Shown here: piece by piece, positions 1,497 to 17,016 of the stretch
How the letters are laid out: every line of letters starts with the position of its first letter
Numbering within the stretch: position 1 is the first letter of the stretch
From: an uncultured Actinomycetes bacterium
GTDB taxonomy: Bacteria; Actinomycetota; Thermoleophilia; Solirubrobacterales; Solirubrobacteraceae
Reading direction: 5' to 3'
Assembly: GCA_963825485.1 (NCBI GenBank)
Contig: CAWGTK010000003.1
Span: forward strand, 1,429-65,428
Length of the DNA stretch: 64,000 bases
Translations under genes and position numbers: made by a program
Notes under the pieces: model-generated
Told to the model about the DNA's origin: nothing
The model's input: only the letters and a program-made list of their open reading frames with translations
The model's database searches: none

Positions 1497-1513
1497 GGAG
1501 GTTGGCCGGCCGT

Positions 1514-3226: not shown

Positions 3227-3228
3227 GG

Positions 3229-3366: not shown

Positions 3367-3459
3367 CGAAGCTCTCCTGGGGTTGAGACGCGTGGTCGGC
3401 GGTGGTGGCGAAGCACCGCATCCCGAAGCCGTCGCTCGGACGCCTTCGGGATGGTCAGG

Positions 3460-3516
3460 GCGCGCCCATCGGATGGCGCGTCCTCGTCGGGCGATGCGCG
3501 ACCATCGGATGGCGCG
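3460..3516. repeat. Two 21-nt direct repeats GCGCG(C/A)CCATCGGATGGCGCG, 36 nt apart, each with the palindromic core CCATC-G-GATGG
   Basis: Read directly at 3460-3480 and 3496-3516. They lie in the ORF-free gap upstream of the 3366 start. Confidence 0.8.
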
Positions 3517-3690
3517 CACCTTCACCGGTGCGAGGTCGGCGAGCGAGCTTCGGGTCCCTATCGCCGGACTCGCACCGGTCGCCGGCCATCGCGCCCCCGG
3601 ACGCGGAGGTGCGATCGGCCGCCGGACCTCCAGGCGAAGCGGGTGACCCGGTGGCCGTGGCAGCCTGTGGTCGTAGACGCCCGAGGGCGG

Positions 3691-4017
3691 CTACGGGTGG
3701 AGCAGCACCGGCGGCGGACGGTTGGCGAGGGAGAAGCAGATGACGATCCGGCTCTGCGCCGTGGCCGGACGCGTGTGCGGAGGTTGGAGTCGAGCGCGAT
3801 CTCGCCGCGGGGATGGGCGCACGCGGCGTGCGCGCAGCCGCTCGATCGTCGCCTCGCCCGGCAGCCAGCCGGTCAGGAGCACGAGCGCAAGGCCGAGCGC
3901 AGGGGTGGCCATGAGCAGCACGACCGGCGTCACCAGGACGCTGGCGAGCACGAGCACGAGCACGGCCGCGAGCACCGTCGCGCGCAGCCGGCGTGTGTCG
4001 CGTGCCCGCAGGCTCAT
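3691..4017 (-). CDS. Small 2-TM membrane protein, paralog of 4325..4666
   Basis: MSLRARDTRRLRATVLAAVLVLVLASVLV..LLTGWLPGEATIERLRARR...LANRPPPVLLHP. An alternative in-frame ATG at 4251 has a strong AAGGAGG SD. Confidence 0.45.
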   Translation of the reverse strand: MSLRARDTRRLRATVLAAVLVLVLASVLVTPVVLLMATPALGLALVLLTGWLPGEATIERLRARRVRPSPRRDRARLQPPHTRPATAQSRIVICFSLANRPPPVLLHP

Positions 4018-4324
4018 CGCGCAGGCGGCCGCCGTCGGATGCTGAGCCCGCCGGCCGCGGCCGCCGGCCGTGCCGCGGGCGCGAGGCCGCGGGCGATGCC
4101 GGGTCCCGGGTACGTGAACCAGTCCGCTTTCGCCAGCGTCGTGCGGTAGGCGCCCGGCAGGAACTTCAGGTTTCAGCAAGCCGGTAACCGAGGCGGCGCC
4201 GGGCGCGAGGGCCACGACGACGGCATGACGAGCGTGCGCGCGGGCGTCCATGACGCCCTCCTTTCGAGGTTCACAACGACAGACGAGGCGGCCTACGCCC
4301 CCATCGGTCGACGGAACGCGCGGC

Positions 4325-4666
4325 TCAGCGGTGCGACAGCACAGCGGCCGCGGCAGGCGGCGGACGCATCGCGAGCGCCGCCGCGAGCAGATAGCCCACA
4401 CGACGCACGACGACCGTCAGCTCGCGCTGCGGCACACACGACCGGCCCCGCAGATGCGCCACCGCAGAGCGCTGGCGACGCCAGCGATCGATCAGCGCCT
4501 CGCCGGGAGCGATGCCGTGCAGCAACAGCAGCGCCAAGACAACGGCCGGCGCCAACAGCAGCGCCACTGCCGAGCCCACGATGAAGATCAGCAACGCGCC
4601 GACAACGAAACCCAGAACCGGCAACGAAACCAGGCGCGCACGTGAGATGACCCCCGACAGACCCAT
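4325..4666 (-). CDS. Small 2-TM membrane protein, paralog of 3691..4017
   Basis: LPVLGFVVGALLIFIVGSAVALLLAPAVVLALLLLHGIAPGEALIDRWRRQR...LAMRPPPAAAAVLSHR. It shares the PGEAxIxRxR and RPPP motifs with its neighbour. Confidence 0.5.
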   Translation of the reverse strand: MGLSGVISRARLVSLPVLGFVVGALLIFIVGSAVALLLAPAVVLALLLLHGIAPGEALIDRWRRQRSAVAHLRGRSCVPQRELTVVVRRVGYLLAAALAMRPPPAAAAVLSHR

Positions 4667-4859
4667 ACCGCGCGAACTTGTACCACGCCTGACAACGTCA
4701 CAACACCTCTACGACCTCTCCTCCCACGCACGATCCTGCGAGCCGCGCGGACGAAGCCGGCCCCGCGGCCGGCACGGGGATGCGCTGCGACGCCTCGTCG
4801 TTCGGACGTGAAGCACGCGTTGCGCTCGAGCTCGGCGAACGCCAGCGCGATCGCTGCGA

Positions 4860-5717
4860 TCAGGCGCGCGGCGACGTCGCCGGCTCCCGCGCACGGTGCG
4901 CAGGTGCGCCGTCGGCGGGATGCTCGCCGGCCGCCACCGTGCGCCGTGCCACGCAGACCGGCCGGCCGTCGACCGGATCGGCGATCATCGTCGCGTGGAC
5001 GCCGAACACGTCGCGCACGAGGCCGGCGGTGATCACGGCGGCGGGCGGCCCGTCCGCGACGATCAGACCGTCTCGCATCACGACGACCCGGTCGGCGTGA
5101 CGGGCGGCGTGGTTGAGGTCGTGCAGCACCATGACGATCGTCGTCCCGCGGACGCGGTTGAGCCGTACGACGAGCTCGAGGATCTCCAGCTGGAAGCGCA
5201 GGTCGAGGAACGTCGTCGGCTCGTCGAGCAGCAGCAGGTCGGTGTCCTGCGCGAGCGCGAGCGCGATCCACGCGCGCTGGCGTTCGCCGCCCGACAGCTC
5301 CGTGAGCGGCCGCTCGGCGAACGCCGTCATCCCGGTGTCGGCGAGCGCGGCACGCACGCTGGCATGGTCCTGGCGCCCGAGCATGCGCAGCCCGCCGACA
5401 TGCGGGAAGCGGCCCTGCTCGACGAGCGCGCCAACCGTCAGCCCGTCGGGCGCCACGGGTCCCTGCGGCAGGACCGCGAGCCGCCGCGCGATCTGGGCCG
5501 ACGACAGGGTCGTCAGCGCGCGGCCGTCGATGTACACGGTCCCGCGGTCGGGGGCCACGAGCCTCGCGAGCGCCTTGAGCAGCGTCGACTTGCCGGCGCC
5601 GTTGGGCCCGACGACCGCCGTGATGCCCGCGGCCGGAAACGTCAGGTCGACGTCTGACAGCACGTCGCGCCCGCCATACGCATGCCCGATACCGTCGCCG
5701 CGAAGGATCTCGCTCAT
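4860..5717 (-). CDS. Fe-siderophore-type ABC importer ATPase (FepC/FecE-like)
   Basis: Walker A GPNGAGKST, signature LSGGERQR, Walker B LLLLDEPT. The ATG at 5717 overlaps the permease stop (ATGA). Confidence 0.92.
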   Translation of the reverse strand: MSEILRGDGIGHAYGGRDVLSDVDLTFPAAGITAVVGPNGAGKSTLLKALARLVAPDRGTVYIDGRALTTLSSAQIARRLAVLPQGPVAPDGLTVGALVEQGRFPHVGGLRMLGRQDHASVRAALADTGMTAFAERPLTELSGGERQRAWIALALAQDTDLLLLDEPTTFLDLRFQLEILELVVRLNRVRGTTIVMVLHDLNHAARHADRVVVMRDGLIVADGPPAAVITAGLVRDVFGVHATMIADPVDGRPVCVARRTVAAGEHPADGAPAHRAREPATSPRA

Positions 5718-6763
5718 CGGCCCATCCGCGCCTGCGAGCGCAGCAAGAGGACCGTGAAGACCGGCGCGCCGACGATCGCGACCGTGACCCCGACCGGGAG
5801 CGTCGGTGACGTGATGAGCCGCGACGGGAGGTTCGCGGCGAGCAGCAGCAGCATCCCGAAGAGGGCGCTGAGCGCAAACAGCCGGCGGCAGTCGGCGCCC
5901 GCGAACGGACGCGCCATGTGCGGGGCGACGAGGCCGAGGAACCCGATCGCCCCGACGACCGAGACAGCCCCGGCCGTCAGCGCGACGGCGACGGCGAGCA
6001 GCCCCACGCGCGCGCGCCGGACGCCCAGCCCCAGCCCCGCCGAGATCTCGTCGCCGAGTTGCAGCGCGTTCGCGAAGCCCGCGCTCGCCAGGCCGAGTGG
6101 CAGGGCGACGAGCGCCCACGGCCAGATCGTGCCCCAGTGCAGCCAGGTCAGGCCGTCGAGCGATCCGATCGTGAACAGCAGCACCGCCCCGATCTGGGTC
6201 GGATGCAGCAGCAGCAGCAGCGACGACGCCGAGGTCAGCATCGCGCCCACGAGCACACCGGTGAGCGTGACGCGCAGCGGGTTGCCGCCGCCCGCCCGGC
6301 TCAGCAGGTAGACGGTCGCCCCGGCCAGCAGCCCGCCCACGGCGGCCAGCAGCGGCAGCGCGGCGCCGTTCGCGCCGCCGGGTCCGTAGACGTTCCACAG
6401 CACGACGAACAGCACGCCGCCCGGGCCGATCCCGATCAGCGTCGGCTCGACGAGCGGGTTGCGCAACACCGACTGCAGCAACGCGCCGGCCAGCCCCAGC
6501 ATCGCTCCTGCGACGAGCGCGATGAGCGCTCCCGGCAGGCGCAGCTGGACGATGATCAAACCGGCGACGGGGTCGCCCTGGCCGGTCAGCGCGGCCACGG
6601 TGCGCGACGGCGAGATCGTCACGCTGCCGAGGCCGACGTTCAGCACGAACAGCAGTCCGACCGCGATCGCGGCGCCGACCCCGGCGAAGGCGGGCCGGCG
6701 CAACGACGAGCCGGCGGCGCCCCGGTCGAGCGCCCTGACCGGGGCTGCGGTCGCGGTCGTCAT
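5714..6763 (-). CDS. FecCD-family ABC importer permease
   Basis: RLPGALIALVAGAMLGLAGALLQSVLRNPLVEP and GFLGLVAPHMAR. ATGA overlap with the upstream permease. Confidence 0.9.
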   Translation of the reverse strand: MTTATAAPVRALDRGAAGSSLRRPAFAGVGAAIAVGLLFVLNVGLGSVTISPSRTVAALTGQGDPVAGLIIVQLRLPGALIALVAGAMLGLAGALLQSVLRNPLVEPTLIGIGPGGVLFVVLWNVYGPGGANGAALPLLAAVGGLLAGATVYLLSRAGGGNPLRVTLTGVLVGAMLTSASSLLLLLHPTQIGAVLLFTIGSLDGLTWLHWGTIWPWALVALPLGLASAGFANALQLGDEISAGLGLGVRRARVGLLAVAVALTAGAVSVVGAIGFLGLVAPHMARPFAGADCRRLFALSALFGMLLLLAANLPSRLITSPTLPVGVTVAIVGAPVFTVLLLRSQARMGR

Positions 6764-7794
6764 GCGCGCGCCGCCCGCTCCTGCAGGTGCATGACCCACA
6801 GGAAGACCGGCACGCCGAGCAGCGTCAGCCAGACGCCGACGGGGACCTCGAGCGGGCTGAACGCCAGCCGCGCCAGCAGGTCCGCCGCCGGCAGCAGCGT
6901 CGCGCCGAGCAGCGCGGACGCCGGCAGGACGACGCGGGCGTCGACGGTGCGCAGGGCGCGGCGCACGACGTGCGGGGCCAGCAGCGCGACGTAGGGGATC
7001 GGCCCGGCCACGGCGGCGACCGCGCCGACCAGCACAGCCGACAGGGCGAGCAGGAAGACCCGCATGCGCACGACGTTCAGGCCCAGCCCCTCGGCCACGT
7101 CGTCGTCGAGGCGCATGAGGTTCAGCCGCCGCCAGGAGGCCATCGCCAGCACGAGCCCGATCGCCGCGAACGGGGCGAGGAGCCGGACGTCGTCCCACGT
7201 CTGCCCCGACAGGCTGCCCAGCAGGTAGGAGAACAGCAGCTGGGCCTGGAGATCCTCACCGAGCGCGACGATCCCCGCCACGCCGGCCGACAGCATCGCC
7301 GAGACTGCGGCGCCGAGCAGGACCGTGCGCACCGGGTCGCTCGCGCTCAGCGTCACCGCAAGGACGAAGCCGCCGGCGACCAGGCCGCCGAGCAGCGCCG
7401 CCCATGGACGCAGGACGTACGGAACGGGGAGCGCGAATACGACGATCGCCGCCATGACGATCCCCGCTCCGGCCGATACGCCGAGCAGTTCGGGTCCGGC
7501 CAGGGGATTGCGCAGACCGTCCTGCAGCAGCACGCCCGTGACGCCGAGACAGGCGCCCGCGACGATCGCCAGCACGAGCCGAGGCAGTCGCAGCTCGAGC
7601 ACGAGGATGTGGTCCAGGCGCGGCCCGCCACCGCCGAGGGTCTCGACGAGCTCACGCGGATCGAGGTTGGGCCCGCCGCGCATAACGCTCGCCGCTGCGA
7701 CCGCGACCAGCACGACCGCCAGCGCGAGCGTCCAGAGCGCGACACGCGATCGGTCTCTGCGCGGCGGCGTGCCGGTCGCGTCGGCCCGGCTCAC
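6760..7794 (-). CDS. FecCD-family ABC importer permease
   Basis: RLPRLVLAIVAGACLGVTGVLLQDGLRNPLAGP and YVALLAPHVVR. The GTG at 7794 overlaps the binding-protein stop (GTGA). Confidence 0.88.
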   Translation of the reverse strand: MSRADATGTPPRRDRSRVALWTLALAVVLVAVAAASVMRGGPNLDPRELVETLGGGGPRLDHILVLELRLPRLVLAIVAGACLGVTGVLLQDGLRNPLAGPELLGVSAGAGIVMAAIVVFALPVPYVLRPWAALLGGLVAGGFVLAVTLSASDPVRTVLLGAAVSAMLSAGVAGIVALGEDLQAQLLFSYLLGSLSGQTWDDVRLLAPFAAIGLVLAMASWRRLNLMRLDDDVAEGLGLNVVRMRVFLLALSAVLVGAVAAVAGPIPYVALLAPHVVRRALRTVDARVVLPASALLGATLLPAADLLARLAFSPLEVPVGVWLTLLGVPVFLWVMHLQERAARA

Positions 7795-8789
7795 GTCAGC
7801 GGCGCCGGGATGTCCTCGGGGTACAGCAGCGGCATGAGCTCGTCGAGCGAGAGCCCGACGGCTCGAGTTCCCTGCGCCGTGTGGGCCCTCGCGTCGACCT
7901 CGTAGACGCGCTTGTTCTTGACCGCCGAGAGCTTGGACCACAGTGGGTTGGACGTCAGGCCCTTCGTCAGCGACGGATCGCCGGGGAACGTCACCGACAG
8001 GATGACGTCGGGATCGTCCTTGAGCACTCGCTCCAGCGAGTATGGGATGTCACCCGCACCATCCTCCTCGACGCCGGCCGGGACCTTCCACGGATACGGG
8101 TTGACGGCCGCCAGCGTGGAGCCGGCGACCGACGTGTTCGTCGAGATGCCGAGCTCCTTCGGCGACCCGTAGATGATCAGCGGAATGACGTCGTCGGGCG
8201 ACGCCTCCCTGTAGGCGGCGATCCTCGCCTCGAGCTTGGAGACGGCCGTCTCGGCCTGCGTCTCGCGGCCCGTCAGCTTCGCGATGTCGCGCAATTGCTT
8301 GATCGTGTCGGTGTACGGACCCGGTCCGACGAGGTACAGCGGCGCCCGCGCCTCGATCGCGCTGCGGAACTTGTCCTGGCGCCCGGCGGCCCCGATGACG
8401 AGGTCGGGCTGCTCGGAGACGACGTCCTCGACGTTCGGGGCGAACAGCGTCCCGCGGATCCGGCCGAGCGCCTTCGCCTTGTCCGGACCGAAGTACGCCG
8501 GCTCGGCGGCGGTCTTGCGACCGATGTCCGTGACCCCCGTCGTGCTCAACCCGAGCTCGGCGACGATGTCGACGCAGGTCACGCTCATGCACGCGATCTT
8601 CGTGACGGCCTGGTCGACGGTGACCTTCGTGCCGCTCTTGTCGATCACGGTGACCGGGAACTTCCCGCTCGCCGTCTGCGCGCTCGCCGCGCCGTCCGAG
8701 TTCGATTCGTCATCGCCGCACGCGCCGATCGTCAGCGCCAGCGCGGCCGCGGTCGCCGCCGCGACGACCCTCCTTCGTGTGCCCCTCAT
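7791..8789 (-). CDS. Substrate-binding lipoprotein, Peripla_BP_2 (FhuD/FecB-like) type
   Basis: Lipobox LTIGAC. PNVEDVVSEQPDLVIGA. The junction with the upstream gene reads TAG-GGGGAG-8 nt-ATG(8789). Confidence 0.88.
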   Translation of the reverse strand: MRGTRRRVVAAATAAALALTIGACGDDESNSDGAASAQTASGKFPVTVIDKSGTKVTVDQAVTKIACMSVTCVDIVAELGLSTTGVTDIGRKTAAEPAYFGPDKAKALGRIRGTLFAPNVEDVVSEQPDLVIGAAGRQDKFRSAIEARAPLYLVGPGPYTDTIKQLRDIAKLTGRETQAETAVSKLEARIAAYREASPDDVIPLIIYGSPKELGISTNTSVAGSTLAAVNPYPWKVPAGVEEDGAGDIPYSLERVLKDDPDVILSVTFPGDPSLTKGLTSNPLWSKLSAVKNKRVYEVDARAHTAQGTRAVGLSLDELMPLLYPEDIPAPLT

Positions 8790-8803
8790 GGTCTGCACTC
8801 CCC

Positions 8804-10588
8804 CTAGTCGGTTCGCATGCGTCCTTCTGTCCCGCCCTCGCTCATGAGCTGGCGGTATGCCGCGCAGCGCGCCATTAGCTCGCCGTCACTGCCCACGTCG
8901 ACGACCTCGCCGGCGCGCAGCAGGACGACCTTGTCGGCTGCCCGCACGGTCGAGCGCCGGTGCGCGATGACGAGGCTCGTCCGCCCCTCCCGCGCCCGCC
9001 GCATCGCCGTCTCGAGCGCCGCCTCGCTGTCGGCGTCGAGGTTCGAGACCGCCTCGTCGAGCACGAGGATCGGGGCCTCGGTGAGCAGCGCGCGGGCAAT
9101 TGCGATTCGCTGGCGCTGACCGCCCGACAGCCGGGCGCCGCGCTCGCCGACAACCGTGTCGTAGCCGTCGTCGAGCGCGGCCGTGATGAAGTCGTGGGCG
9201 AGCGCGTCGCGCGCGGCGCGCTCGACCATGGCATCGCTCGCGCCGGGCCGAGCCATGCCGATGTTGTCGCCCACCGAGCAGTTGAACAGGTAGGTGTCCT
9301 GGGGCACGAAGGCGACGAGCTGCGGCAGGTCGCGCAACGGAAGGTCGGCGACGTCGTGCCCGCCGATCGTGATCCGGCCGCCCGACGGGTCCCACCAGCG
9401 CAGCAGCAGGTGCGCGCAGGTCGACTTACCGGCGCCCGACGCGCCGACGAGCGCGACGGTCTCTCCGGCGGCGGCGGCGAAGCTCACGCCGCGGACGGCG
9501 GCGGGGAGATGCGGCTCGTAGGCGAACGTGACGTCCTCGAAGCCGACGTCGGGCGCGATGCGCTGCGGCAGCGACGCCGACGCACGGTCGGCCACCGCAG
9601 CGGGCTCGGCGAGGAACGCGAGGATCCGCTCGCCGGCGGCGGCCACCGCGCCGAGCTGGTGCAGCGTCTCCCCCAGGGCGACGAGCGGTGCGAACGCGTA
9701 CGCCGCCAGGACGACGGCGACCGGGAACAGCTCGCGCGGCAGGGCACCGTCGGCGACGAGCGCGCCCGCGGTCGCGACCACGGCGACGAGGCCCAGGGCC
9801 ATCAGGGCGTCGGTCAGCGCACGTTCGGCCCCCGAGCGACGCGCGTAGCCGCGCTGCGCGCCCGCCAGCCGCCGCGTCGAGCCGGCCAGCCGGCCGAGCT
9901 GATGCTCTTCCTGGCCGAACACGACGACCTCGCGCAGGCCCTGCACGCTGTCGACCGTGTCGGCGTTGAGGTCGCCGAGCCGGTCGCGCAGGGCTCGGCC
10001 CTGCGCGCCGGCGCGGCGCCGCCACCAGGCCGGCACGCTGGCCACCGCCAGCAGCGGCACGACGAGCACCGCCGCGAGCGCCGGGTCGATCGCGGCGAGG
10101 GCGGCGAGCGCGGCGAGCGGCACGACGACGGCCACGATCAGCGGGCTGAGCGTGTGCGCGAAGAACAGCTCGCACTGCTCGACGTCGGCCAGCACCGTCG
10201 CCCCGACGTCGCCCGCGCGCCGCTTGAGCATGAAGCCCGGCGTCAGGCGCTCGAACGCGTCGTAGCACTGCACGCGCATCTCGACGAGGCAGCGGTAGGC
10301 GAGATCGTGCGCGAACCACGACTCCAGCCAGCCCATCACCGCGCGCGGCAGCACGAGCACGCCCAGCGCGATGAGCCAGGGCCGCAGCTCGCCGACCGAT
10401 GCACCGGTCGCGGCCAGCCCGACGACGTAGGCGCCGGCGGCCGCGGCGGACAGCGCGAGCGCCTGGTCGACGATCCCGCACGCGATCGTCGCCGCGAGCT
10501 TGCGCCGCAAGCCGCGCAGGATGACGAGCAGCGGGCTGAAGCGGCGCAGGCTCGCGCGCGTCGGCGGTGCGGCGACCGTGACCGTCAC
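8804..10588 (-). CDS. ABC half-transporter (TMD-NBD, exporter fold; CydC/YbtQ/IrtB-like)
   Basis: GASGAGKST, LSGGQRQR, ILVLDEA. 4-nt overlap with the upstream partner. Confidence 0.9.
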   Translation of the reverse strand: MTVTVAAPPTRASLRRFSPLLVILRGLRRKLAATIACGIVDQALALSAAAAGAYVVGLAATGASVGELRPWLIALGVLVLPRAVMGWLESWFAHDLAYRCLVEMRVQCYDAFERLTPGFMLKRRAGDVGATVLADVEQCELFFAHTLSPLIVAVVVPLAALAALAAIDPALAAVLVVPLLAVASVPAWWRRRAGAQGRALRDRLGDLNADTVDSVQGLREVVVFGQEEHQLGRLAGSTRRLAGAQRGYARRSGAERALTDALMALGLVAVVATAGALVADGALPRELFPVAVVLAAYAFAPLVALGETLHQLGAVAAAGERILAFLAEPAAVADRASASLPQRIAPDVGFEDVTFAYEPHLPAAVRGVSFAAAAGETVALVGASGAGKSTCAHLLLRWWDPSGGRITIGGHDVADLPLRDLPQLVAFVPQDTYLFNCSVGDNIGMARPGASDAMVERAARDALAHDFITAALDDGYDTVVGERGARLSGGQRQRIAIARALLTEAPILVLDEAVSNLDADSEAALETAMRRAREGRTSLVIAHRRSTVRAADKVVLLRAGEVVDVGSDGELMARCAAYRQLMSEGGTEGRMRTD

Positions 10589-12327
10589 GCGACCCCGTCC
10601 TGGCGCGCGACGAGCTGCGCGTAGGCGCCGCCGGCGGTGATCAGCTGCGCGTGCCCGCCCAGCTCGACGGCCCGGCCGGCGTCGAGCACGACGATCCGGT
10701 CGGCCGACCGCACGGTCGACAGGCGGTGCGCGATGACGAGCGTCGTGCGGCCCGCTCGGACGCGCTCGAGCGCCTCCTGCACGATGCCCTCGCCCTCGAC
10801 GTCGACGCTCGACGTCGCCTCGTCGAGCACGAGGATCGGTGCATCCTTGACGAGGGCGCGGGCGATCGCCAGCCGCTGACGCTGGCCGCCCGACAGCGTC
10901 AGGCCACGATCGCCGATGACCGAGTCCGCACCAGCCGGCAGCGCCTCGACGAACTCCGCGGCGTTGGCCAGCCGCAGGGCCCGGCGCACCTCGTCGGGCG
11001 TGGCGCCGGGCCGGCCGAAGGCGACGTTGTCGAAGACCGTGCCGTAGAACAGGTAGACGTCCTGGGACACGACGGAGGCAAGCGATCGCAGCCGCGCGAG
11101 CCCGATCTCGCGCACGTCCACACCATCGACGCAGACGCGGCCCGCGTCGGGATCGAAGAAGCGCAGCAGCAGCGACAGCACGGTCGTCTTGCCGGCGCCT
11201 GAGGGCCCCACGATCGCCACGGTCTCGCGTGGCGAGACGGCGAGTGAGAAGTCGTCCAGCGCCGGGCGGGCGCCGGCGCGGTACGCGAAGCTGACGTGGT
11301 CAAAGGACACCGCCGGCGACGAGGTCCCGGCGATCCGGTCGCGCGATGGCCGCGACGCGCCCACCGGATCGGCGATCGCGGGCTCGGCCTCGAGCAGGTC
11401 GAAGATGCCGCCCGCCGCGGCCTCCGCCGAGTATGTGGAGTGAAAGGCCGTCTGCAGGTCCTTCAGCGGCCGGAACGCCTCGCGGCTGAGCAGCAGCAGC
11501 ACGAGCAGCTCGGTGATCGACAGGGCACCGGCCTCGAAGCGCAGCGCGCCGACGCCGATCGCCAGCGCCAAGCCGCCGCTCTCGGCCAGGCCGATCACGC
11601 CGACGCTCATGTTCGAGATCGCCGTCAGCCGCAGCGACGCGCGGTAGAAGCCCCACGACCGCTCGCGCAGGTTCTCCCCGTGCGTGCGCGTGGCGCCGAG
11701 CGCCTTGAGCGTCGACATCCCCTGCACCGCGTCGAGGTACTCCGCGCCGAGCGTGCGCCAGCGCCGCCAGTAGGTCCGGCTGCTCTCGCTCAGCATCCGC
11801 CGCATGACGCGCGGGGCGAACACCACCGAGGCGCCGCACGCGAGCACGACGACGCCCACGACCGGGTCGACGGTGGCGATGATCGCCACGCACGCGAGCG
11901 TCCCGACGAGCGACACGAGCAGCTGCGGGACGAACACCGCCGCGTAGCGGTCCAGCGCCTCGACGCCGTTGACGAGCGTCGTCAGCACCATCCCCGTGCG
12001 GGTGCGCAACAGGTAACCCGGCCCGAGCGCGAGCAGGTGCTCGTACAGGCGCGCGCGCAGGGCCAGCTTGACCGTCGCGGCGATCTCCGTGGCGGCCTGT
12101 TCGCGGGCCCAGATCAGGCCAGCGCGCAGAACGATGAGCACGATCGACGCGAGCAGCAACCCGGTGATGTCGGTGAACGGCCGGCCGTCGAAGATCCGCG
12201 CCAGCGCGTGCGCGACGACGAGCCCCTGGCCGATGTACGTGGCGGTGATCGCCAGCCCGATCGCCACGGCGACGAGCACCTGCGCTCGCGCGCAGCGCAC
12301 GAGCGCCAGCAGGCGACGGTTCAGCAT
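10585..12327 (-). CDS. ABC half-transporter (TMD-NBD, exporter fold; CydD/YbtP/IrtA-like)
   Basis: GPSGAGKTT, LSGGQRQR, ILVLDEAT. The start is 15 nt after the cyclodehydratase stop. Confidence 0.9.
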   Translation of the reverse strand: MLNRRLLALVRCARAQVLVAVAIGLAITATYIGQGLVVAHALARIFDGRPFTDITGLLLASIVLIVLRAGLIWAREQAATEIAATVKLALRARLYEHLLALGPGYLLRTRTGMVLTTLVNGVEALDRYAAVFVPQLLVSLVGTLACVAIIATVDPVVGVVVLACGASVVFAPRVMRRMLSESSRTYWRRWRTLGAEYLDAVQGMSTLKALGATRTHGENLRERSWGFYRASLRLTAISNMSVGVIGLAESGGLALAIGVGALRFEAGALSITELLVLLLLSREAFRPLKDLQTAFHSTYSAEAAAGGIFDLLEAEPAIADPVGASRPSRDRIAGTSSPAVSFDHVSFAYRAGARPALDDFSLAVSPRETVAIVGPSGAGKTTVLSLLLRFFDPDAGRVCVDGVDVREIGLARLRSLASVVSQDVYLFYGTVFDNVAFGRPGATPDEVRRALRLANAAEFVEALPAGADSVIGDRGLTLSGGQRQRLAIARALVKDAPILVLDEATSSVDVEGEGIVQEALERVRAGRTTLVIAHRLSTVRSADRIVVLDAGRAVELGGHAQLITAGGAYAQLVARQDGVA

Positions 12328-12342
12328 CGCGCCTGCGGCGGC

Positions 12343-14613
12343 TCAGGCATGGGCGAGCGGGAACAGGTTCAGCTCGTGCTCGCCGAGCGGCCGCTCCCGC
12401 CAGCCCAGCTCGACGGCCTCGTCCTGCAGGCGCCGCCGGCCGAGGAACGGAAACGCGGCCGGGAAGTTCGGCACCAGCCCCGGCACGACGATCCGCACGA
12501 CGCGCAGCCCGCTGGCGGCGACGTCGGGTGTCGTCAGATCGACGCAGAAGACCTCCAGGCCGGCGTGCTCGACGAGTGCGCGGTAGTGGTCGGCCGAGCG
12601 CTCCGCGAGGACCGGCAGGTCGTCGCACGTGATCGTCCCGCACGGTTGCAGCCACGGCCGCACGCGCTCGATCGCGCGCGGATCGAGATAGACCTGCGGC
12701 TGGCATTCGAGGTCGCCGACGTCGCGGAAGTCGCCGCGGAAGTCGTCGAGATAGGCGCGATCGGAGCGCCACGGCTTGATGAAGCCACCGCTCTTCAGCC
12801 CGAGGCGCACGGCATCGCGGAAGAGGCCATGCTCCCGCAGGAGGTCGCGGCTGATCTCCTGGTTGGTCAGGCCTTCGCTCCAGGCCTTCAGCGCCGCCTC
12901 GAGCGGATCGGCTCGGGCGGCGAACCCGATGCTCAGCAACTGCTCCTCGACGTTCTCCACGATGCCGGCCACCACCGGCACGCCGAGGCGGTTGGGCAGC
13001 GAGAGCAGGCTGCCACGCTGACCGAGCCGCTCGGGCTCCCCCTCCCAGACGGCGGCGAGCCGGTGCGGGAGCTCGATCGACGGCAGGGCGGGCAGGTTCG
13101 CCCACCACACCATCGTTGCGTGGCGCTCGATGAGCTCCTCGAGCCCGGCGCAGATCGCGTCGTCGAGCGTCGGCCCCGCGGCGATGCCGGGATAGAGCGG
13201 GAAGTTCGTCGGCGGCTCGTCCACGAACTCCGCGACGTGCCAGTTGACGTAGGCGAAGCTCGCCGGCACCCATGCCCCGACGTCGCGGGTGAGCGAACGG
13301 CCTCGAATCCATTGCACCGGCAGATCGGCGTCGAAGCGCACGAACGGGAAGCCGGGCGCGTCGTACTGCGCATCGGAGTACAGGACCATTGCCCGCGGGT
13401 CGAGCGCGTCCTCGCCCGCCGCGCACAGCTGCGCGTGGCTCGCGCGCCGCAGGCGGTCCGCTTGGACCCAGTTGCCGCAGTAGCGCTCGACGCCCTCGCC
13501 GATCGCGCTCTGGCCGACGCGCTCCGGCGTGCCGTACAGCAGGCTGCCGCCGCAGACGGGATTGATCGCCCACGGGGCGAGGCGCAGGGTGTCGCTCACC
13601 CGGGCGACGACCGTCGTCAGCACGCGCGGGATGACCGGCGGGTGGGTGATCTGCGACAGCGACGCGATCAACCCGGTGCGCTCGTCGAGCAGCAGCGCGG
13701 CACCGGACGTCGACGTGTTGCGGTAGTGAGCCGCGCCGGGCGCGTCGGGCCGCGGGAGCACGGGATGCGGTATCACCGCGAAGGCGCGCGGCTCGAGCTC
13801 GATCTCGTTGCCCAGCAGGGCGCTCGTGCCACCGCTGCGCCAGCGCTCGATCTCGACGAACGCGACCGCGAGCATCCAGCGCAGCTCTCGCGCCGGCGGG
13901 AGGTAGCCGCGAGGCGCGAGCGTGTCGGAGGCCAGCGCCTCGAACAGCGACTCCTCGAGCATGGCGCAACGGCGGCGATCGAGGACGTCGCGGTAGCGCA
14001 ACCCGACATCGGCGCCGATCGCCGGACCCAGCCATGCGCTCTCGCGATCGAAATGAAACGGCACCCAGGCAACCCCGGCCGCCGCGCAGCGTTCGTCGAC
14101 CTCGGTCAGGTACCCGACGTCCAAGCGGTCCCGCAGCACGACGAGCACGGCCTCCTCGACGCCCGCGAGCGCGCCAGGGTCGTCGCTGCATGTCGGCAGC
14201 AGCTCGACACCGTCGTCGGCGACGTGCTCGCGCGCGGCCTCGACGAGCGCGGCGTCACCCGCGAGCGCGACGCGCAGCGGACGCGGTGCCGCGGGGCGGC
14301 GACCGAAGCGTAGACAGTGCTCCTCGCCCGGCGCGTGCGGCAGATCGGTGATGCAGCCCTGCGCGCCCAGCACCTCGACGATCTCCTCGAAGCCACCGGT
14401 CAGGCCGGTCTGCGCCGCGACCTCGAGCGCCGATCGAGTGCCATCGCAGAGGAGCAGCGCCTCGCGCACGACCGCGGCGGGCGACGCGATCTCGAACGCG
14501 GCGCCCGTCGGCGTCAGTGCGAGGGTGTGGTCGCCACGCAGTTCACGGAGATCGACGCGGACGAGGCGCGGCCCGATCGTGGTCTGAACTGCCGATGCGT
14601 CGTGATCGCTCAA
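12343..14613 (-). CDS. Fused azoline-forming cyclodehydratase: PqqD-like RRE, E1-like (SagC/cyclodehydratase) domain and YcaO domain (PatD/LynD-like architecture)
   Basis: N-terminus FEIASPAAVVREALLLCDGTRSALEVAAQTGL..IVEVLGAQGCITD (RRE-like). Middle VALAGDAAL...GVAWVPFHFDRESAWLGPAIG. YcaO core SAIGEGVERYCGNW..PGIAAGPTLDDAICAGLEELIERH. TTG start per the track. Confidence 0.85.
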   Translation of the reverse strand: MSDHDASAVQTTIGPRLVRVDLRELRGDHTLALTPTGAAFEIASPAAVVREALLLCDGTRSALEVAAQTGLTGGFEEIVEVLGAQGCITDLPHAPGEEHCLRFGRRPAAPRPLRVALAGDAALVEAAREHVADDGVELLPTCSDDPGALAGVEEAVLVVLRDRLDVGYLTEVDERCAAAGVAWVPFHFDRESAWLGPAIGADVGLRYRDVLDRRRCAMLEESLFEALASDTLAPRGYLPPARELRWMLAVAFVEIERWRSGGTSALLGNEIELEPRAFAVIPHPVLPRPDAPGAAHYRNTSTSGAALLLDERTGLIASLSQITHPPVIPRVLTTVVARVSDTLRLAPWAINPVCGGSLLYGTPERVGQSAIGEGVERYCGNWVQADRLRRASHAQLCAAGEDALDPRAMVLYSDAQYDAPGFPFVRFDADLPVQWIRGRSLTRDVGAWVPASFAYVNWHVAEFVDEPPTNFPLYPGIAAGPTLDDAICAGLEELIERHATMVWWANLPALPSIELPHRLAAVWEGEPERLGQRGSLLSLPNRLGVPVVAGIVENVEEQLLSIGFAARADPLEAALKAWSEGLTNQEISRDLLREHGLFRDAVRLGLKSGGFIKPWRSDRAYLDDFRGDFRDVGDLECQPQVYLDPRAIERVRPWLQPCGTITCDDLPVLAERSADHYRALVEHAGLEVFCVDLTTPDVAASGLRVVRIVVPGLVPNFPAAFPFLGRRRLQDEAVELGWRERPLGEHELNLFPLAHA

Positions 14614-14713
14614 CCCATCTCCCAGCCTCTTGGAGAACGCGAGCGACAGGGTCGCCCGCTCGGAGTCCTGCCGCCGTCACGCCACGGCCCGTCGCGCGAC
14701 CGGCACGGCAGCC

Positions 14714-14741
14714 GGGGGCCCGCACGAACGTGCCGGCCCCC
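14714..14741 (-). terminator. GC-rich stem-loop between the small ORF and the cyclodehydratase (possible attenuator or partial terminator)
   Basis: GGGGGCCCGCAC-gaac-GTGCCGGCCCCC: a 12-bp stem with one mismatch and no obvious U-tract. Confidence 0.4.
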
Positions 14742-14790
14742 GCGCTACCGCCGTCACCGGTCGATCGAACGACCGGCGAGCGTCACCGTG

Positions 14791-14883
14791 CTACCGCGAC
14801 CAGCGGAAGTGCGCCACCACCGTCGAGTGGTTGTCGGCGGGCAGCACCTTCGTCTTGGGAGAGAGGTCGATGGACTTGATCAT
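14791..14883 (-). CDS. 30-aa candidate RiPP precursor peptide (below the ORF-track size cut-off)
   Basis: AAGGAG, then 6 nt, then ATG 14883. Sequence MIKSIDLSPKTKVLPADNHSTVVAHFRWSR, TAG at 14791-14793. Same strand as the YcaO gene, 177 nt upstream of it. An alternative upstream in-frame ATG at 14907 has no SD. Confidence 0.6.
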   Translation of the reverse strand: MIKSIDLSPKTKVLPADNHSTVVAHFRWSR

Positions 14884-15056
14884 GTGCCACTCCTTTTGCG
14901 CGTGCATCGATGTCGAGCACGTCGTCGGGGTACCTGCATTACGAACGCGCGTCCTTATTGCAAGGTAGCATCAATACGGAGTTGCTCGCAATCCGGAGTG
15001 CTTCACGTGCCGCGCAAGCCGGAGCATTGGAGCTCGAGTCGCCTACGACCTCCGCG

Positions 15057-16976
15057 CTATTCGAAGGCGGCGCCGAGGATGCCGAGCAGGTTGCTGCCGT
15101 TGAGCAGGGCGTCGAGCGCGCGTTTGCCCCCGCGGGCGATGCTGATGAGCACGTCGAGCGGCAGCCCCTCGGCGGCGGCGCGGGCGATGGCTGCCTGGGG
15201 CTCGGTCAGCTCGCCGGCAGTTCGCGCGTCGGCGATGCCGCGGCGCAGTCCGTCGCGCAGCGCTGCGGCGAGCGCGCCGTCGTCGATGTTGTGCTCGCGC
15301 AGGAACGTCACGCGCCGGTCGGTGGTGGCGAGCGCGAGGGTGAGCTCCTCGCGGGTGACGCGCAGGTTGCAGGCGGCACCGTCGAGCGCCGAGAGCCCGA
15401 GTTGCTCGGCGACCTGGCTGAGGCCCGTCGCGTCGGGCCAGACGCGTGGCTTGCAGGGATCGCGCGCCGACAGCGGCTTGTAGCTGCCGCCGCCGAGCGC
15501 GACGTAGGTGCCGCCGAGCGCTCCCGCGAGCGTGAGCGCCGCGAGGAGGCTGGCGGCGGATGCCGCGCCGCCCGTCAGCGCGATCGGAATGAGCGCGAGC
15601 AGGGCCAGCGCCGCGGCCACGAGGAACGACGTGCTGAACGCGTGCGTGGCGGCGCGGTGGACCTCGTCGGTGAGGTCGGCCTGCAGCCGTGCGTAGGCGA
15701 CCCGGTCCTCCGCCGGCGGCTGCTGGGCGGCGAACGCCGGGCGCAGGTCGGGCAGCTGGCCTCCCGCCAGCGCGATGCGCGTGGCGATCGCGTCGGCGAG
15801 ATCGAGCTTCAGCGCGGGCGAGAGGCGGGCGTCGAGCAGCTTGGCGGTGCCCGCTCGCTCAGCGGCGATCTGCTCGTCCTGCAATGCGGACGCGAACACC
15901 GGTGTGAGCACGAGCAGCCCGACGACGACGCCCGCGTGGCGCGCGGTGATCGTCCACGCGCCGCGGCGCGCGAGCTGTGCCGCGTCGACGTCGGCAATCC
16001 CCGCCCCGGGCTCACCGAGCGCGCGTCGCGTCAGCGCCCACAGCGTGAGCCCGAGCCCGACGCCGATCAACACCTGCGGCGCGATCGTCCAGCCGGCCTG
16101 CGCGCCGGGCAGCAGGCCGAGCGCCGCCAGGCCTCCGGCCAGCGCAACCGTACCGGCGGCGACGAGCCGCTGCTCGGCGGCGAATCTGCGGGCGAGCATC
16201 GCGGTCGCCAGCGCGGCCAGCGGCATCACCGAGACGATCGCGGCCGCGCGGAGGGGCGAGTGGCGCAGTCCCTCGGTCAACAGGATCACGAGCAAGAAGA
16301 GCGCCGCGGTGAGAGCGGCCGAGACCAGTGCGAGTGCGACCGTCGGCGCCGCCGTGCCGGGGCCAGCGGTCGTCGCCGGCCGCAGGGAGGCCGCACGCGG
16401 CATGTCGGCGACGTCGCGCGACAGCGGCCGCAGCAGCGCGACGAGCGCGAGCGGCACCTGCACGGCGAAGATCGCCTGCCAGGAGAACAGCTCCGTCAGC
16501 GCGCCGCCGAGCGCCGGACCGATCGCGGCGCCCGCGATCCCCGCGGCGGCCCAGATGCGCGAGCCCGCCGCTTGGCCGCGCTGGGCGACGAGCAGCTCGA
16601 GCGCGGCCGCGATGACCGCGGCGCCGCCGACCGCCTGCGCACAGCGCGCGGCGACGAGGACGGCGAGACTCGGAGCCAGCGCGCAGGCCAGCGAGGCCGC
16701 CGCGAAGGCGACGATCCCGAGCCGCCAGGCGGCGATCGCACCGCCGCGGCGCACCAGCACCGCGGCGGGCAGCGCGACGAGCGCGAGCACGAGGTTGAAC
16801 GACGTCAGCACCCAGGCGACATCGGTGACGTCGGCGCGAAACTCGCGCAGGACGGCGGGCAGGCCGAGCGTCACGACCGACGAGTCGGCCAGCACGATCG
16901 CGACCGCCAGCGCGACGACCACCGTTCGCGTGCGGCCCTGCTCCTCGCGGGCAGAACCTGGCGGGCGCCCGCTCAC
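15057..16976 (-). CDS. MFS transporter (DHA2/EmrB-like, multi-TM) with a ~190-aa soluble C-terminal extension
   Basis: VVVALAVAIVLADSSVVTLGLPAVLREF, then many TM segments. The C-terminal helical region begins SYKPLSARDPCKPRVWPD... Confidence 0.85.
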   Translation of the reverse strand: MSGRPPGSAREEQGRTRTVVVALAVAIVLADSSVVTLGLPAVLREFRADVTDVAWVLTSFNLVLALVALPAAVLVRRGGAIAAWRLGIVAFAAASLACALAPSLAVLVAARCAQAVGGAAVIAAALELLVAQRGQAAGSRIWAAAGIAGAAIGPALGGALTELFSWQAIFAVQVPLALVALLRPLSRDVADMPRAASLRPATTAGPGTAAPTVALALVSAALTAALFLLVILLTEGLRHSPLRAAAIVSVMPLAALATAMLARRFAAEQRLVAAGTVALAGGLAALGLLPGAQAGWTIAPQVLIGVGLGLTLWALTRRALGEPGAGIADVDAAQLARRGAWTITARHAGVVVGLLVLTPVFASALQDEQIAAERAGTAKLLDARLSPALKLDLADAIATRIALAGGQLPDLRPAFAAQQPPAEDRVAYARLQADLTDEVHRAATHAFSTSFLVAAALALLALIPIALTGGAASAASLLAALTLAGALGGTYVALGGGSYKPLSARDPCKPRVWPDATGLSQVAEQLGLSALDGAACNLRVTREELTLALATTDRRVTFLREHNIDDGALAAALRDGLRRGIADARTAGELTEPQAAIARAAAEGLPLDVLISIARGGKRALDALLNGSNLLGILGAAFE

Positions 16977-17016
16977 GATCTGGATCGTGTCGCTTGCATC
17001 TGGGTGCCCAGGCGTG

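What the first reader, a model, noticed from the sequence alone, without database searches (positions are those of the whole stretch)
14791..14883. Unlisted 30-codon ORF with a near-ideal SD directly upstream of the cyclodehydratase: candidate precursor peptide
The minus strand reads cgcgcAAAAGGAGtggcacATG ATC AAG ..., encoding MIKSIDLSPKTKVLPADNHSTVVAHFRWSR followed by TAG. It is too short for the ORF track. It lies in a locally AT-richer leader, on the same strand as the YcaO gene and 177 nt upstream of it, which is the canonical position for a RiPP precursor.

The N-terminal part (IKSIDLSPKTKVLP) could act as a beta-strand leader for the RRE. The C-terminal part has the only clustered heterocyclisable residues (S20, T21, S29), flanked by H19 and H25. 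There is no Cys, which is unusual for azol(in)e RiPPs.
Basis: seen in the sequence. Interest (0 to 1): 0.85.

Follow-up and report, generated by a model that had tools for sequence, protein, structure and literature searches.

The report
Precursor peptide gene for YcaO enzyme
The 30-codon ORF is a real, conserved gene that most likely encodes the substrate peptide of the adjacent YcaO enzyme; it belongs to an uncharacterised, cysteine-free branch of the streptamidine-like peptide natural products.

Summary
ATG 14883 to TAG 14791 (minus strand) encodes MIKSIDLSPKTKVLPADNHSTVVAHFRWSR. AAAGGAG lies 6 nt upstream, and the ORF ends 177 nt before a 756-aa YcaO gene.

The ORF is not a chance ORF:
- 55 of 80 YcaO-homologue loci, from three phyla, carry a homologous small ORF on the same strand just upstream, mostly behind GGAGG.
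- Differences between relatives fall mainly on third codon positions (34/25/99).
- A strong hairpin usually follows the stop codon.
- Within a 10.1-kb cassette shared at about 90-92% identity by three metagenome contigs, the longest identical run (111 nt) is exactly the SD plus this ORF.

The enzyme models as RRE + E1-like + YcaO. Its closest solved relatives are LynD, TruD and MusD.

Peptides of this type are listed in the supplement of the streptamidine paper (Russell 2021, "Network 1"). NCBIfam's streptamidine models do not recognise them, and their product is unknown.

Family conservation falls on L14, A/P15-16, N/H17-18, H19, F26 and W28. It does not fall on S20, T21, H25 or S29, and no member has Cys. 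"Precursor peptide" is therefore well supported, but oxazoline formation at Ser/Thr is not. The chemistry remains open.

This is a new variant of a known kind, of moderate interest.

The parts
14884..14995 (-). Conserved upstream block, the presumed promoter/operator and 5' UTR. It contains the SD AAAGGAG at 14890-14896 and an imperfect 28-bp palindrome at 14935-14962.
   Evidence: Homology with the sister cassettes L081 and L083 begins at window 14995; further upstream the neighbours differ. GC is 0.56-0.58. Palindrome. No sigma-70 consensus was found.
14791..14883 (-). Precursor peptide gene: 30 codons plus TAG, encoding MIKSIDLSPKTKVLPADNHSTVVAHFRWSR.
14705..14782 (-). Two strong GC-rich hairpins directly after the stop codon (14752-14782 and 14705-14751). 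They are a candidate attenuator or mRNA-stabilising element between the precursor gene and the enzyme gene.
   Evidence: Intergenic fold of -112 kcal/mol, z = -3.45. A hairpin at this position recurs in 70% of 56 family loci, against 5% of controls, p = 2.5e-9. No U-tract terminator was scored.
12343..14613 (-). Fused RRE-like / E1-like / YcaO enzyme, 756 aa.
   Evidence: PF02624 at residues 369-713 and TIGR03604 above cut-off. PDB profile hits to TruD, LynD and MusD. AF2 model with pLDDT 85.8, with Foldseek alignments of about 800-830 columns to LynD and TruD (796-831) and 710-726 columns to MusD.
10585..12327 (-). ABC transporter T1: fused permease and ATPase of exporter type, with no peptidase domain.
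   Evidence: Co-located with the YcaO in many loci.
8804..10588 (-). ABC transporter T2: fused permease and ATPase.
7791..8789 (-). FecB-like substrate-binding protein (Peripla_BP_2).
5714..7794 (-). Two FecCD-family permease genes (6760-7794 and 5714-6763).
4860..5717 (-). FecE-like ABC ATPase. Its stop codon is the 3' end of the conserved cassette.
   Evidence: Homology with L081 and L083 ends at window 4856.

Best explanation
The ORF at 14791-14883(-) is a translated gene encoding the precursor (substrate) peptide of the fused RRE/E1-like/YcaO enzyme encoded 177 nt downstream. It is the first gene of an eight-gene cassette, window 4856-14995: precursor, YcaO, two exporter-type ABC transporters, and a FecBCDE-like importer.

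Proposed mechanism, with status of each step:
1. The mRNA is translated from a strong SD (inferred from sequence and conservation).
2. A hairpin after the stop codon sets the ratio of precursor to enzyme transcript (inferred).
3. The N-terminal part of the peptide, MIKSIDLSPKTKVL, docks on the enzyme's RRE (inferred).
4. The YcaO domain uses ATP to activate a backbone amide in the conserved segment around N18-H19 (inferred).
5. The product is trimmed, exported by T1/T2 and possibly taken up again through the Fec-like system (inferred).

The peptide belongs to a distinct sub-family with the pattern MIxxI...(L/V)AP-N/H-x-N/H-H...F-x-W. This sub-family is related to the streptamidine (AmiA) precursors. 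The chemistry is therefore more likely streptamidine-like (amidine or another non-azole backbone modification) than classical Ser/Thr/Cys azoline formation, but this was not determined.
For: Shown here:

1. Homologous small ORFs lie immediately upstream of the YcaO, on the same strand, in 55 of 80 homologue loci from Actinomycetota, Chloroflexota and Acidobacteriota. Three further variants turned up on inspection. Nearly all follow a GGAGG or AAGGAG motif.
2. Coding signature in 14 close pairs. In frame there are 83 synonymous and 46 non-synonymous codon changes, against 23:105 and 9:116 in the other two frames. Differences by codon position are 34/25/99, p = 3.6e-14.
3. In the 10.1-kb cassette shared with contigs L081 and L083 (91.8% and 89.8% identity), the longest identical run is 111 nt at 14786-14896, which is the SD plus the ORF. 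All 19 zero-difference 93-nt windows lie on it.
4. A hairpin after the stop codon is a conserved architectural feature.
5. The enzyme has a beta3-alpha3 RRE-like module at residues 21-84, then an E1-like domain and a YcaO domain. Its best relatives are LynD, TruD and MusD.
6. Some relatives carry two core units in one ORF (L013, L051, P0185, P0190, P0199, P0207) or two tandem ORFs (L024). This is typical of RiPP precursors.
7. Peptides of this type are listed in 'Network 1: streptamidine-like family' of Russell et al. 2021: Actinomyces gerencseriae (the same genome as L079), Microbacterium testaceum and Arcanobacterium phocae. In that family, deleting amiA abolished the product and NMR placed the core inside AmiA.
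8. The cassette pairs two ABC exporters with FecBCDE, as the ami cluster does.
Against: - No expression, peptide or product data exist for this locus or for any member of the sub-family.
- The window peptide is a divergent member: LPA instead of LAP, D17 instead of N/H, and no R9. The leave-out HMM gives only E = 0.0043.
- NCBIfam's streptamidine models NF040714 and NF040715 do not hit it or its relatives.
- The cassette has no AmiC-like hydrolase and no AmiE-like dehydrogenase. Both are essential for streptamidine, so leader removal is unexplained.
- Streptamidine itself showed no metal binding and no bioactivity, so the role of the Fec-like genes is unknown.
- The perfect conservation of synonymous sites is not explained by peptide function alone.
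- L081 and L083 are 97.6% identical to each other, so they count as roughly one independent comparison.
Confidence: 0.85

Rival explanations
1. Same precursor role, but with classical LAP/cyanobactin-type chemistry. The YcaO cyclodehydrates S20 and/or T21 (or S29) to (methyl)oxazolines, and the product is an azoline peptide.
For: - The enzyme passes the TIGR03604 'thiazole/oxazole-forming peptide maturase' cut-off.
- Its nearest solved relatives are the azoline-forming heterocyclases LynD and TruD.
- This peptide does have S20-T21 right after the invariant His.
- Streptamidine shunt products were consistent with an oxazoline intermediate.
Against: - Ser/Thr at positions 20 and 21 occur in only 21/53 and 11/53 family members, and none has Cys.
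- The Microlunatus relative has no Ser/Thr/Cys in its core.
- A sister clade of the same enzyme family has (AVVHNR)n precursors with no Ser/Thr/Cys in the repeats.
- The cassette has no dehydrogenase.
- The window enzyme's C-terminus, FPLAHA, has only one Pro of the Pro-rich motif.
Confidence: 0.3
2. The ORF is a regulatory leader peptide, that is, a translation-coupled attenuator. Ribosome stalling at His/Asn codons would control formation of the downstream hairpin and hence read-through into the YcaO and transporter operon. The peptide itself would have no function.
For: A short ORF with conserved His/Asn codons, followed directly by a strong hairpin and then the operon, resembles his-type attenuators. 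The hisL comparison rests on general knowledge.
Against: - Conservation is at the amino-acid level across three phyla at non-His positions: L14, A-P, F26 and an invariant W28.
- Purifying selection acts along the whole ORF.
- Repeated core modules and tandem gene copies occur.
- The family is homologous to experimentally proven precursors.
- There are only 1-4 His residues, not a run.
- No alternative antiterminator pairing was identified.
Confidence: 0.04
3. It is a chance ORF in high-GC intergenic DNA, and the SD match is fortuitous.
For: ORFs of 30 codons are common in this window. There are 118 ORFs of at least 25 aa in 14 kb.
Against: All the conservation evidence argues against it.
Confidence: 0.01
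4. It is a real small protein, but not the enzyme's substrate. It could be, for example, an accessory or regulatory peptide of the transporters or of the YcaO.
For: Substrate status was not tested directly. No protease is present in the cassette.
Against: The position directly upstream of an RRE-bearing YcaO, the multi-core variants, and the kinship to AmiA-type precursors all fit a substrate.
Confidence: 0.08

Closest known systems
Streptamidine (ami) biosynthetic gene clusters and AmiA precursors (Russell et al. 2021, Chem Sci, PMC8442711)
   Same: - A short Cys-free precursor next to a YcaO, with an E1/RRE-like partner function, two ABC transporters and FecBCDE-like genes.
- Precursors with 1-3 repeated motifs.
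- Peptides of exactly this sub-type (..VLAPNSNHHGHVATSFSWTG) appear in the paper's Network 1 table.
- My reading of the aligned landmarks: L-A ... H ... aromatic, and 'LAP ... FAW' shared with motif B (..LAAPQDPTTHALVQNPFAW).
   Different: - It lacks motif A and motif B (the ALV motif), and NF040714 and NF040715 give no hit.
- AmiB and AmiD are fused here into one 756-aa protein.
- There is no AmiC hydrolase and no AmiE dehydrogenase in the cassette.
- The product is unknown.
Cyanobactin heterocyclases LynD/TruD/PatD with PatE-type precursors
   Same: - The enzyme shares the three-domain fused architecture (RRE, E1-like, YcaO). These are its best matches in sequence-profile and fold searches.
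- Some family precursors have one leader with several core cassettes.
   Different: - Sequence identity is only about 20%.
- The cores have no Cys and no conserved Ser/Thr.
- There are no PatA/PatG proteases and no oxidase.
- The hosts are Actinomycetota, Chloroflexota and Acidobacteriota.
MusD (PDB 7u58), a YcaO with ATP-dependent peptide-bond cleavage in muscoride biosynthesis
   Same: It is among the top three relatives. It offers a precedent for a fused YcaO that trims a recognition sequence without a protease (PMC10885120), which could explain the missing hydrolase.
   Different: There is no evidence here for cleavage activity. MusA substrates carry azoles.
Klebsazolicin and bottromycin amidine-forming YcaOs
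   Same: They are precedents for YcaO-dependent amidine formation instead of azoline formation (as discussed in PMC8442711).
   Different: They belong to different enzyme clades and have different precursors. They were not compared directly here.

Membership tests
Streptamidine-like RiPP family (Network 1 of Russell et al. 2021) | A short precursor near the YcaO that groups by sequence with Network 1 peptides. | tested here: met
   Network 1 lists A. gerencseriae MPEITIVEVEERRAAETVLAPNSNHHGHVATSFSWTG and similar peptides. The same peptide was recovered in L079. The window ORF matches a profile of this sub-family built without it, at E = 0.0043 and rank 1 of 1173. Identity to the nearest relatives is 37-45%.
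Streptamidine-like RiPP family (Network 1 of Russell et al. 2021) | Precursor motif A (..LAHxSAxHSNALVENPF) or motif B (..APQGPGTNALVHNPFA), as captured by NCBIfam NF040714 and NF040715. | tested here: not met
   No NCBIfam hit for the window peptide or four relatives even at E <= 10, while control motif A and B peptides score 66.5 and 70.6 bits. The window peptide falls with the paper's 'no conserved motif' minority.
Streptamidine-like RiPP family (Network 1 of Russell et al. 2021) | A YcaO of the associated clade plus an E1-like/RRE partner (AmiD plus AmiB). | tested here: met
   The window YcaO is 42-43% identical to the YcaO next to the Network 1 peptide of A. gerencseriae (L079). The E1-like/RRE part is present as an N-terminal fusion. 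No tree including AmiD itself was built.
Streptamidine-like RiPP family (Network 1 of Russell et al. 2021) | AmiC hydrolase and AmiE flavin dehydrogenase, both essential for streptamidine. | tested here: not met
   The cassette 4856-14995 is filled by eight genes, none of them a hydrolase or dehydrogenase. The paper notes that many related clusters also lack some of these genes.
Streptamidine-like RiPP family (Network 1 of Russell et al. 2021) | FecBCDE-like genes and two ABC transporters in the cluster. | tested here: met
Streptamidine-like RiPP family (Network 1 of Russell et al. 2021) | A product with an N-terminal six-membered amidine ring. | not testable with these tools
   This needs MS and NMR of the product.
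Azoline-forming TOMM/LAP/cyanobactin cyclodehydratase systems | A YcaO domain of the SagD family with conserved ATP/Mg-binding glutamates. | tested here: met
   TIGR03604 scores 250 bits against a cut-off of 219. GEGVERY (E373, E376) and EELIER (E493, E496) are invariant in the 25-sequence alignment. Their role as ATP/Mg ligands is inferred from general knowledge of YcaO enzymes.
Azoline-forming TOMM/LAP/cyanobactin cyclodehydratase systems | An E1-like domain with an RRE that binds the leader. | tested here: inconclusive
   The fold is predicted: beta3-alpha3 at residues 21-84, with the model aligning over most of its length (about 800-830 columns) to LynD and TruD. Leader binding was not tested.
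Azoline-forming TOMM/LAP/cyanobactin cyclodehydratase systems | A core peptide rich in Cys/Ser/Thr that is conserved as the site of heterocyclisation. | tested here: not met
   There are 0 Cys in 53 peptides. Ser/Thr is not conserved at any core column, and one member has none.
Azoline-forming TOMM/LAP/cyanobactin cyclodehydratase systems | A Pro-rich (PxPxP-like) C-terminus on the YcaO. | tested here: inconclusive
   The family consensus is ..FPLPHA, with P752 invariant and P754 at least 90% conserved. The window enzyme ends ..FPLAHA.

The most novel reading that the evidence does not exclude
This fused-YcaO clade performs a backbone modification that needs no Ser/Thr/Cys. The modification would centre on the invariant Asn/His-His element. 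A sister clade of the same enzyme family has (AVVHNR)n precursors with no hydroxyl or thiol residues in the repeats. With no protease in the cassette, the enzyme may also trim its own substrate, as MusD does. The small His-containing product would be exported by the ABC pair and recaptured by the Fec-like importer, acting as a ribosomally made metallophore or signalling peptide. The system occurs in soil Actinomycetota, Chloroflexota, Acidobacteriota and Actinomyces.
Probability: 0.25. Interest if true: 0.75.

Novelty: new variant of a known kind. Interest (0 to 1): 0.5.

Why it matters
Streptamidine-like clusters are among the most widespread YcaO RiPP clusters in Actinobacteria, yet their biological role is unknown. 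Only one product has been solved.

This cassette is a stripped-down version: one precursor, one fused enzyme and transporters. Its precursor motif is distinct, is missed by current annotation models, and is labelled "hypothetical protein" or not called at all.

With only two biosynthetic genes, it is a convenient system for two questions:
- What does a cyclodehydratase-type YcaO do to a core without conserved Ser/Thr/Cys?
- Why are Fec-type importers always nearby?

For genome annotation, the result gives a usable signature: MIxxI..LAP-N/H-x-N/H-H..FxW, a GGAGG SD, then a hairpin, then a YcaO of about 750 aa.

Tried and rejected
- **Rfam:** scanning 14300-15300 at E <= 1 found no known RNA family.
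- **Promoter and terminator scans:** the sigma-70 and U-tract scans found nothing. The hairpins are therefore not classical intrinsic terminators by that definition, and the promoter is unidentified.
- **Pfam and NCBIfam:** no hit on the peptide or its relatives, and no Pfam hit on YcaO residues 1-368.
- **Upstream ATG at 14907 (38-aa version):** rejected because of the frame-breaking indel in L001.
- **Second-best HMM hit in the window** (3561-3872 minus strand..HGHRVTRFAWR, E = 0.3): rejected. It has no start codon or SD and lies outside the cassette.
- **MFS and MMPL genes upstream (15057-19596):** not part of the unit, because the sister cassettes have different upstream neighbours.
- **Profile searches of the big protein libraries with the peptide family:** only 40 and 32 clusters were returned. 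Gene callers usually miss these ORFs, so family size cannot be estimated this way. The first attempt failed because the query was under 40 aa.
- **Full-text searches:** motif strings (LAPNSNHH, AVVHNR and others) and 'YcaO + metallophore' found no paper describing this sub-family.

Full report
**1. The observation**

On the minus strand, the sequence reads cgcgcAAAAGGAGtggcacATG ATC AAG ... TGG TCG CGG TAG. Translation gives MIKSIDLSPKTKVLPADNHSTVVAHFRWSR, running from ATG 14883 to TAG 14791.

- The SD AAAGGAG sits at 14896-14890, 6 nt before the ATG.
- The next gene on this strand is 12343..14613, a 756-aa ORF with a TTG start preceded by GGGAG. It is a YcaO protein: PF02624 scores 170.8 bits over residues 369-713, and TIGR03604 (SagD family) scores 250 bits against a cut-off of 219.
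- The gap between the two genes is 177 nt.
- GC falls to 0.56-0.61 over 14800-15050, against 0.70-0.82 around it.

All elements of the description are therefore correct. A longer 38-aa version starting at ATG 14907 exists in this window. In the sister contig a 1-nt indel puts that ATG out of frame, so 14883 is the start.

**2. Is it a gene?**

I collected 80 loci that encode relatives of the YcaO from one genome per species. I then searched all six frames with a profile of the first hits.

*Presence and position.*
- 55 loci have a significant match (E < 1e-2).
- Every match is on the YcaO strand and directly upstream of the YcaO.
- Nearly all follow a GGAGG or AAGGAG motif.
- Three more variants were found by eye.
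- Most of the remaining loci either lack upstream sequence or belong to a distant clade with a different small ORF (see section 6).

*Coding signature in 14 close pairs.*

| Measure | Result |
|---|---|
| Nucleotide differences by codon position 1/2/3 | 34 / 25 / 99 (p = 3.6e-14) |
| Synonymous : non-synonymous, ORF frame | 83 : 46 |
| Synonymous : non-synonymous, other two frames | 23 : 105 and 9 : 116 |

*Leave-out test.* A profile built without the window peptide and its identical copy in L001 still ranks this ORF first among 1173 stop-to-stop segments of the 64-kb window, at E = 0.0043.

*Sister cassettes.* The window is ENA ERZ25039485 contig_6441 (99.8% identical). Two other contigs of that sample carry the same cassette at 91.8% and 89.8% identity.
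- Homology runs from window 14995 to 4856. That is from 112 nt upstream of the ATG to the stop codon of the last transporter gene.
- Within these 10.1 kb, the longest perfectly identical run is 111 nt at 14786-14896, which is the SD plus the ORF. All 19 zero-difference 93-nt windows lie on it.
- The two sister contigs are 97.6% identical to each other, so this counts as about one independent comparison.
- The conservation extends to synonymous sites. Peptide function alone does not explain that, and I leave it unexplained.

**3. Anatomy around it**

*Hairpins.* The 177-nt spacer folds into two long GC-rich hairpins right after the stop codon (-112 kcal/mol, z = -3.45). This is a family feature of position rather than sequence:
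- In 56 family ORFs, the 90 nt after the stop fold with a mean z of -2.7, and 70% fall below -2.
- Control segments inside the YcaO gene give a mean z of -0.07, and 5% fall below -2 (p = 2.5e-9).
- There is no U-tract.
- I read the hairpins as an attenuator or stabiliser that sets the precursor-to-enzyme ratio. That is common in RiPP operons, and it is inference here.

*The enzyme.* Residues 1-368 have no Pfam hit, but other evidence defines the fold.
- A profile of 25 homologues hits TruD (E = 5.5e-46, from residue 123), LynD and MusD in the PDB.
- An AF2 model (pLDDT 85.8, pTM 0.83) has three strands followed by three helices at residues 21-84, the topology expected of a RiPP recognition element. 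An E1-like domain and the YcaO domain follow.
- Foldseek aligns the model to LynD and TruD over about 800-830 columns, and to MusD over 710-726 columns.
- The glutamate motifs GEGVERY and EELIER are invariant.

*Downstream genes.* Two fused permease-ATPase ABC transporters follow, neither with a peptidase domain. Then come a Peripla_BP_2 binding protein, two FecCD permeases and an ABC ATPase. These eight genes fill the cassette, and none is a protease or a dehydrogenase.

*Upstream genes.* The MFS and MMPL genes upstream are not part of the unit, because the sister contigs have integrase, DUF2442 and DUF4160 genes there instead.

**4. What is conserved in the peptide**

The alignment holds 53 distinct peptides.

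| Window position | Family pattern |
|---|---|
| I2 | I/V in 45/53 |
| I5 | I/V in 50/53 |
| 9 | R in 41/53; the window has P |
| L14 | L in 43/53; always hydrophobic |
| 15-16 | A-P in 50-52/53; the window has P-A |
| 17-18 | N or H |
| H19 | 51/53 |
| 20 | small residue: G 20, S 12, T 9, A 7 |
| 21 | H 34, T 7, S 4, V 4 |
| F26 | F 44, I 8 |
| W28 | 53/53 |

- No peptide contains Cys.
- The Microlunatus parietis member (..LAPHNHAVQAAVFGWN) has no Ser/Thr/Cys after LAP.
H19, F26 and W28 are.
- The window peptide is a divergent member. Its 'LPADNH' is echoed by 'LLPPDHH' in P0199.
- Several relatives carry two units in one ORF, or two tandem genes. That is typical of RiPP precursors and hard to reconcile with a purely regulatory leader.

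**5. Comparison with what is known**

Russell et al. 2021 (PMC8442711) mined short ORFs near actinobacterial YcaOs. They defined 'Network 1', 237 peptides, as the streptamidine-like family.
- Their tables include MPEITIVEVEERRAAETVLAPNSNHHGHVATSFSWTG from Actinomyces gerencseriae DSM 6844 (my L079), plus Microbacterium, A. howellii and Arcanobacterium peptides of the same type. The paper reports 22 Network 1 sequences that lack motifs A and B. I infer that these peptides belong to that minority, because the NCBIfam motif models do not hit this peptide type.
- For the model cluster, they showed that amiA is required. The product, streptamidine, derives from the internal HLSATH core and carries an N-terminal amidine ring rather than an oxazoline. 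AmiB (E1/RRE-like), AmiC (hydrolase), AmiD (YcaO), AmiE (dehydrogenase) and the FecBCDE-like genes are all needed.

The window cassette shares the precursor-YcaO-ABC-ABC-FecBCDE logic. It differs in three ways:
- AmiB and AmiD are fused.
- AmiC and AmiE are missing.
- The precursor has neither motif A nor motif B. NCBIfam NF040714 ('streptamidine family RiPP') and NF040715 recognise control motif A and B peptides at 66-71 bits but give nothing for this sub-family even at E <= 10.

Where public databases call these ORFs at all, they label them 'hypothetical protein'. I found no paper describing a product for this sub-family.

**6. Mechanism**

*Shown:*
- a conserved, translated small gene;
- tight linkage to an RRE-bearing fused YcaO;
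- recurrent linkage to an exporter pair and to an importer-type binding protein (Peripla_BP_2 in most examples, SBP_bac_5 in Sinosporangium).

*Inferred:* leader docking, ATP-dependent activation of a backbone amide near N18-H19, export, and re-uptake.

*Chemistry.* For this particular peptide, oxazoline formation at S20/T21 is possible. The family-wide pattern argues for a reaction that needs no hydroxyl or thiol side chain. Streptamidine, klebsazolicin and bottromycin are precedents for amidine formation by YcaOs.

A more distant clade of the same enzyme family reinforces this. In Amycolatopsis and Streptomyces (YcaO 37-41% identical) an SD-preceded ORF sits 64-137 nt upstream. It encodes MISTFERPAAVVVHNRAVVHNRAVVHNRAVVHNRAVVHNRSAAK, that is, 4-5 copies of AVVHNR with no Ser/Thr/Cys in the repeats. 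It is followed only by the YcaO and an MFS transporter in L080. What the two clades share is a His-Asn or Asn-His element.

*Leader removal.* This is unexplained, since the cassette has no protease. MusD, one of the three closest relatives, cleaves a peptide bond ATP-dependently (PDB 7u58 title; PMC10885120). Self-trimming is therefore conceivable but untested.

**7. Rivals**

- **His-type attenuator leader.** It would fit the ORF-hairpin-operon layout. It does not fit the amino-acid-level conservation at non-His positions, the multi-core variants, or the homology to proven precursors.
- **Chance ORF.** Excluded.
- **Non-substrate small protein.** Cannot be formally excluded without biochemistry.

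**8. Verdict**

The locus is a minimal, fused-enzyme variant of the streptamidine-like RiPP clusters. Its precursor motif has been listed in a supplement but never characterised and is not covered by annotation models.

This is a new variant of a known kind. It would not surprise RiPP specialists, but it is a tidy two-gene system for asking what this YcaO clade does to cores without Ser/Thr/Cys. I score interest at 0.5.

Noticed in passing
L043, L053, L055, L059, L062, L076 (Amycolatopsis) and L068, L070, L074, L075, L077, L080 (Streptomyces), about 64-137 nt upstream of the YcaO start (e.g. L080 5763-5882): A distant clade of the same fused-YcaO family has a different SD-preceded small ORF: MISTFERPAAVVVHNRAVVHNRAVVHNRAVVHNRAVVHNRSAAK. 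It consists of 4-5 tandem AVVHNR hexapeptides with no Ser/Thr/Cys in the repeats. It has no NCBIfam hit, only one called protein in the 5.8-billion library, and no literature hit. In L080 an MFS transporter lies downstream and an M20 peptidase lies divergently upstream.
   Followed up: partly
window 14786-14896: The SD plus ORF is identical at every nucleotide, synonymous sites included, in three cassettes that otherwise differ at 8-10% of sites. Peptide-level selection alone does not explain this. An RNA-level constraint or a recent local exchange is possible.
   Followed up: no
window 4856-14995 versus L081 (contig_588) and L083 (contig_14702): The eight-gene cassette has sharp homology boundaries and sits in different contexts. 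Phage-type integrases, DUF2442, DUF4160 and an acetyltransferase lie upstream in the two sister contigs, whereas MFS, MMPL and two-component genes lie upstream in the window. This suggests the cassette moves as a unit. Several transporter genes look split in the sister contigs, either as pseudogenes or through assembly indels.
   Followed up: partly
window 14935-14962: An imperfect 28-bp palindrome, TGCATTACGAACGCGC/GCGCGTCCTTATTGCA (81% complementary), lies in the AT-richer conserved block 52-79 nt upstream of the ATG. It is a candidate operator. One arm carries a substitution and a 1-nt deletion in L001, so its significance is doubtful.
   Followed up: partly
window 4325-4666 (-) and the C-terminal part of 3691-4401 (-): Just beyond the cassette end there are two apparently paralogous small membrane-protein ORFs. 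Each has hydrophobic stretches followed by PGEA(L/T)I(D/E)R(W/L)R. Neither has a Pfam hit.
   Followed up: no
window 1514-3421 (-) and 261-2237 (-): A PepSY_TM protein and an ORF with a partial SCO1/SenC domain lie further downstream on the same strand. Both are metal-related by annotation, but they are outside the block conserved with the sister contigs.
   Followed up: no
L013 3327-3551, L051 5089-5394, L024 208-505; proteins P0185, P0190, P0199, P0207: Some family precursors contain two core modules in one ORF, or occur as two tandem genes. In P0185 the whole unit including the leader-like RKVE..RWEKAIAP part is duplicated. In P0190 and P0199 only the roughly 20-aa LAP..FxW module is duplicated.
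   Followed up: partly
L084 (Microlunatus parietis) 12398-13935; L085 (Actinomyces-type) 11492-12868; L086 (Chloroflexota) 2870-6262: Accessory genes vary between loci. In Microlunatus, two methyltransferases follow the YcaO. In many Microbacteriaceae and Actinomyces loci, a second YcaO of about 455 aa with no N-terminal domain follows. One Chloroflexota locus has three YcaO genes in a row.
   Followed up: no
P0123 (MPEITIVEVEERRAAETVLAPNSNHHGHVATSFSWTG): This Actinomyces-type family member is very common in public assemblies. It is indexed in 394 blocks of the collection and seen on 249 contigs, yet it is annotated only as a hypothetical protein.
   Followed up: no
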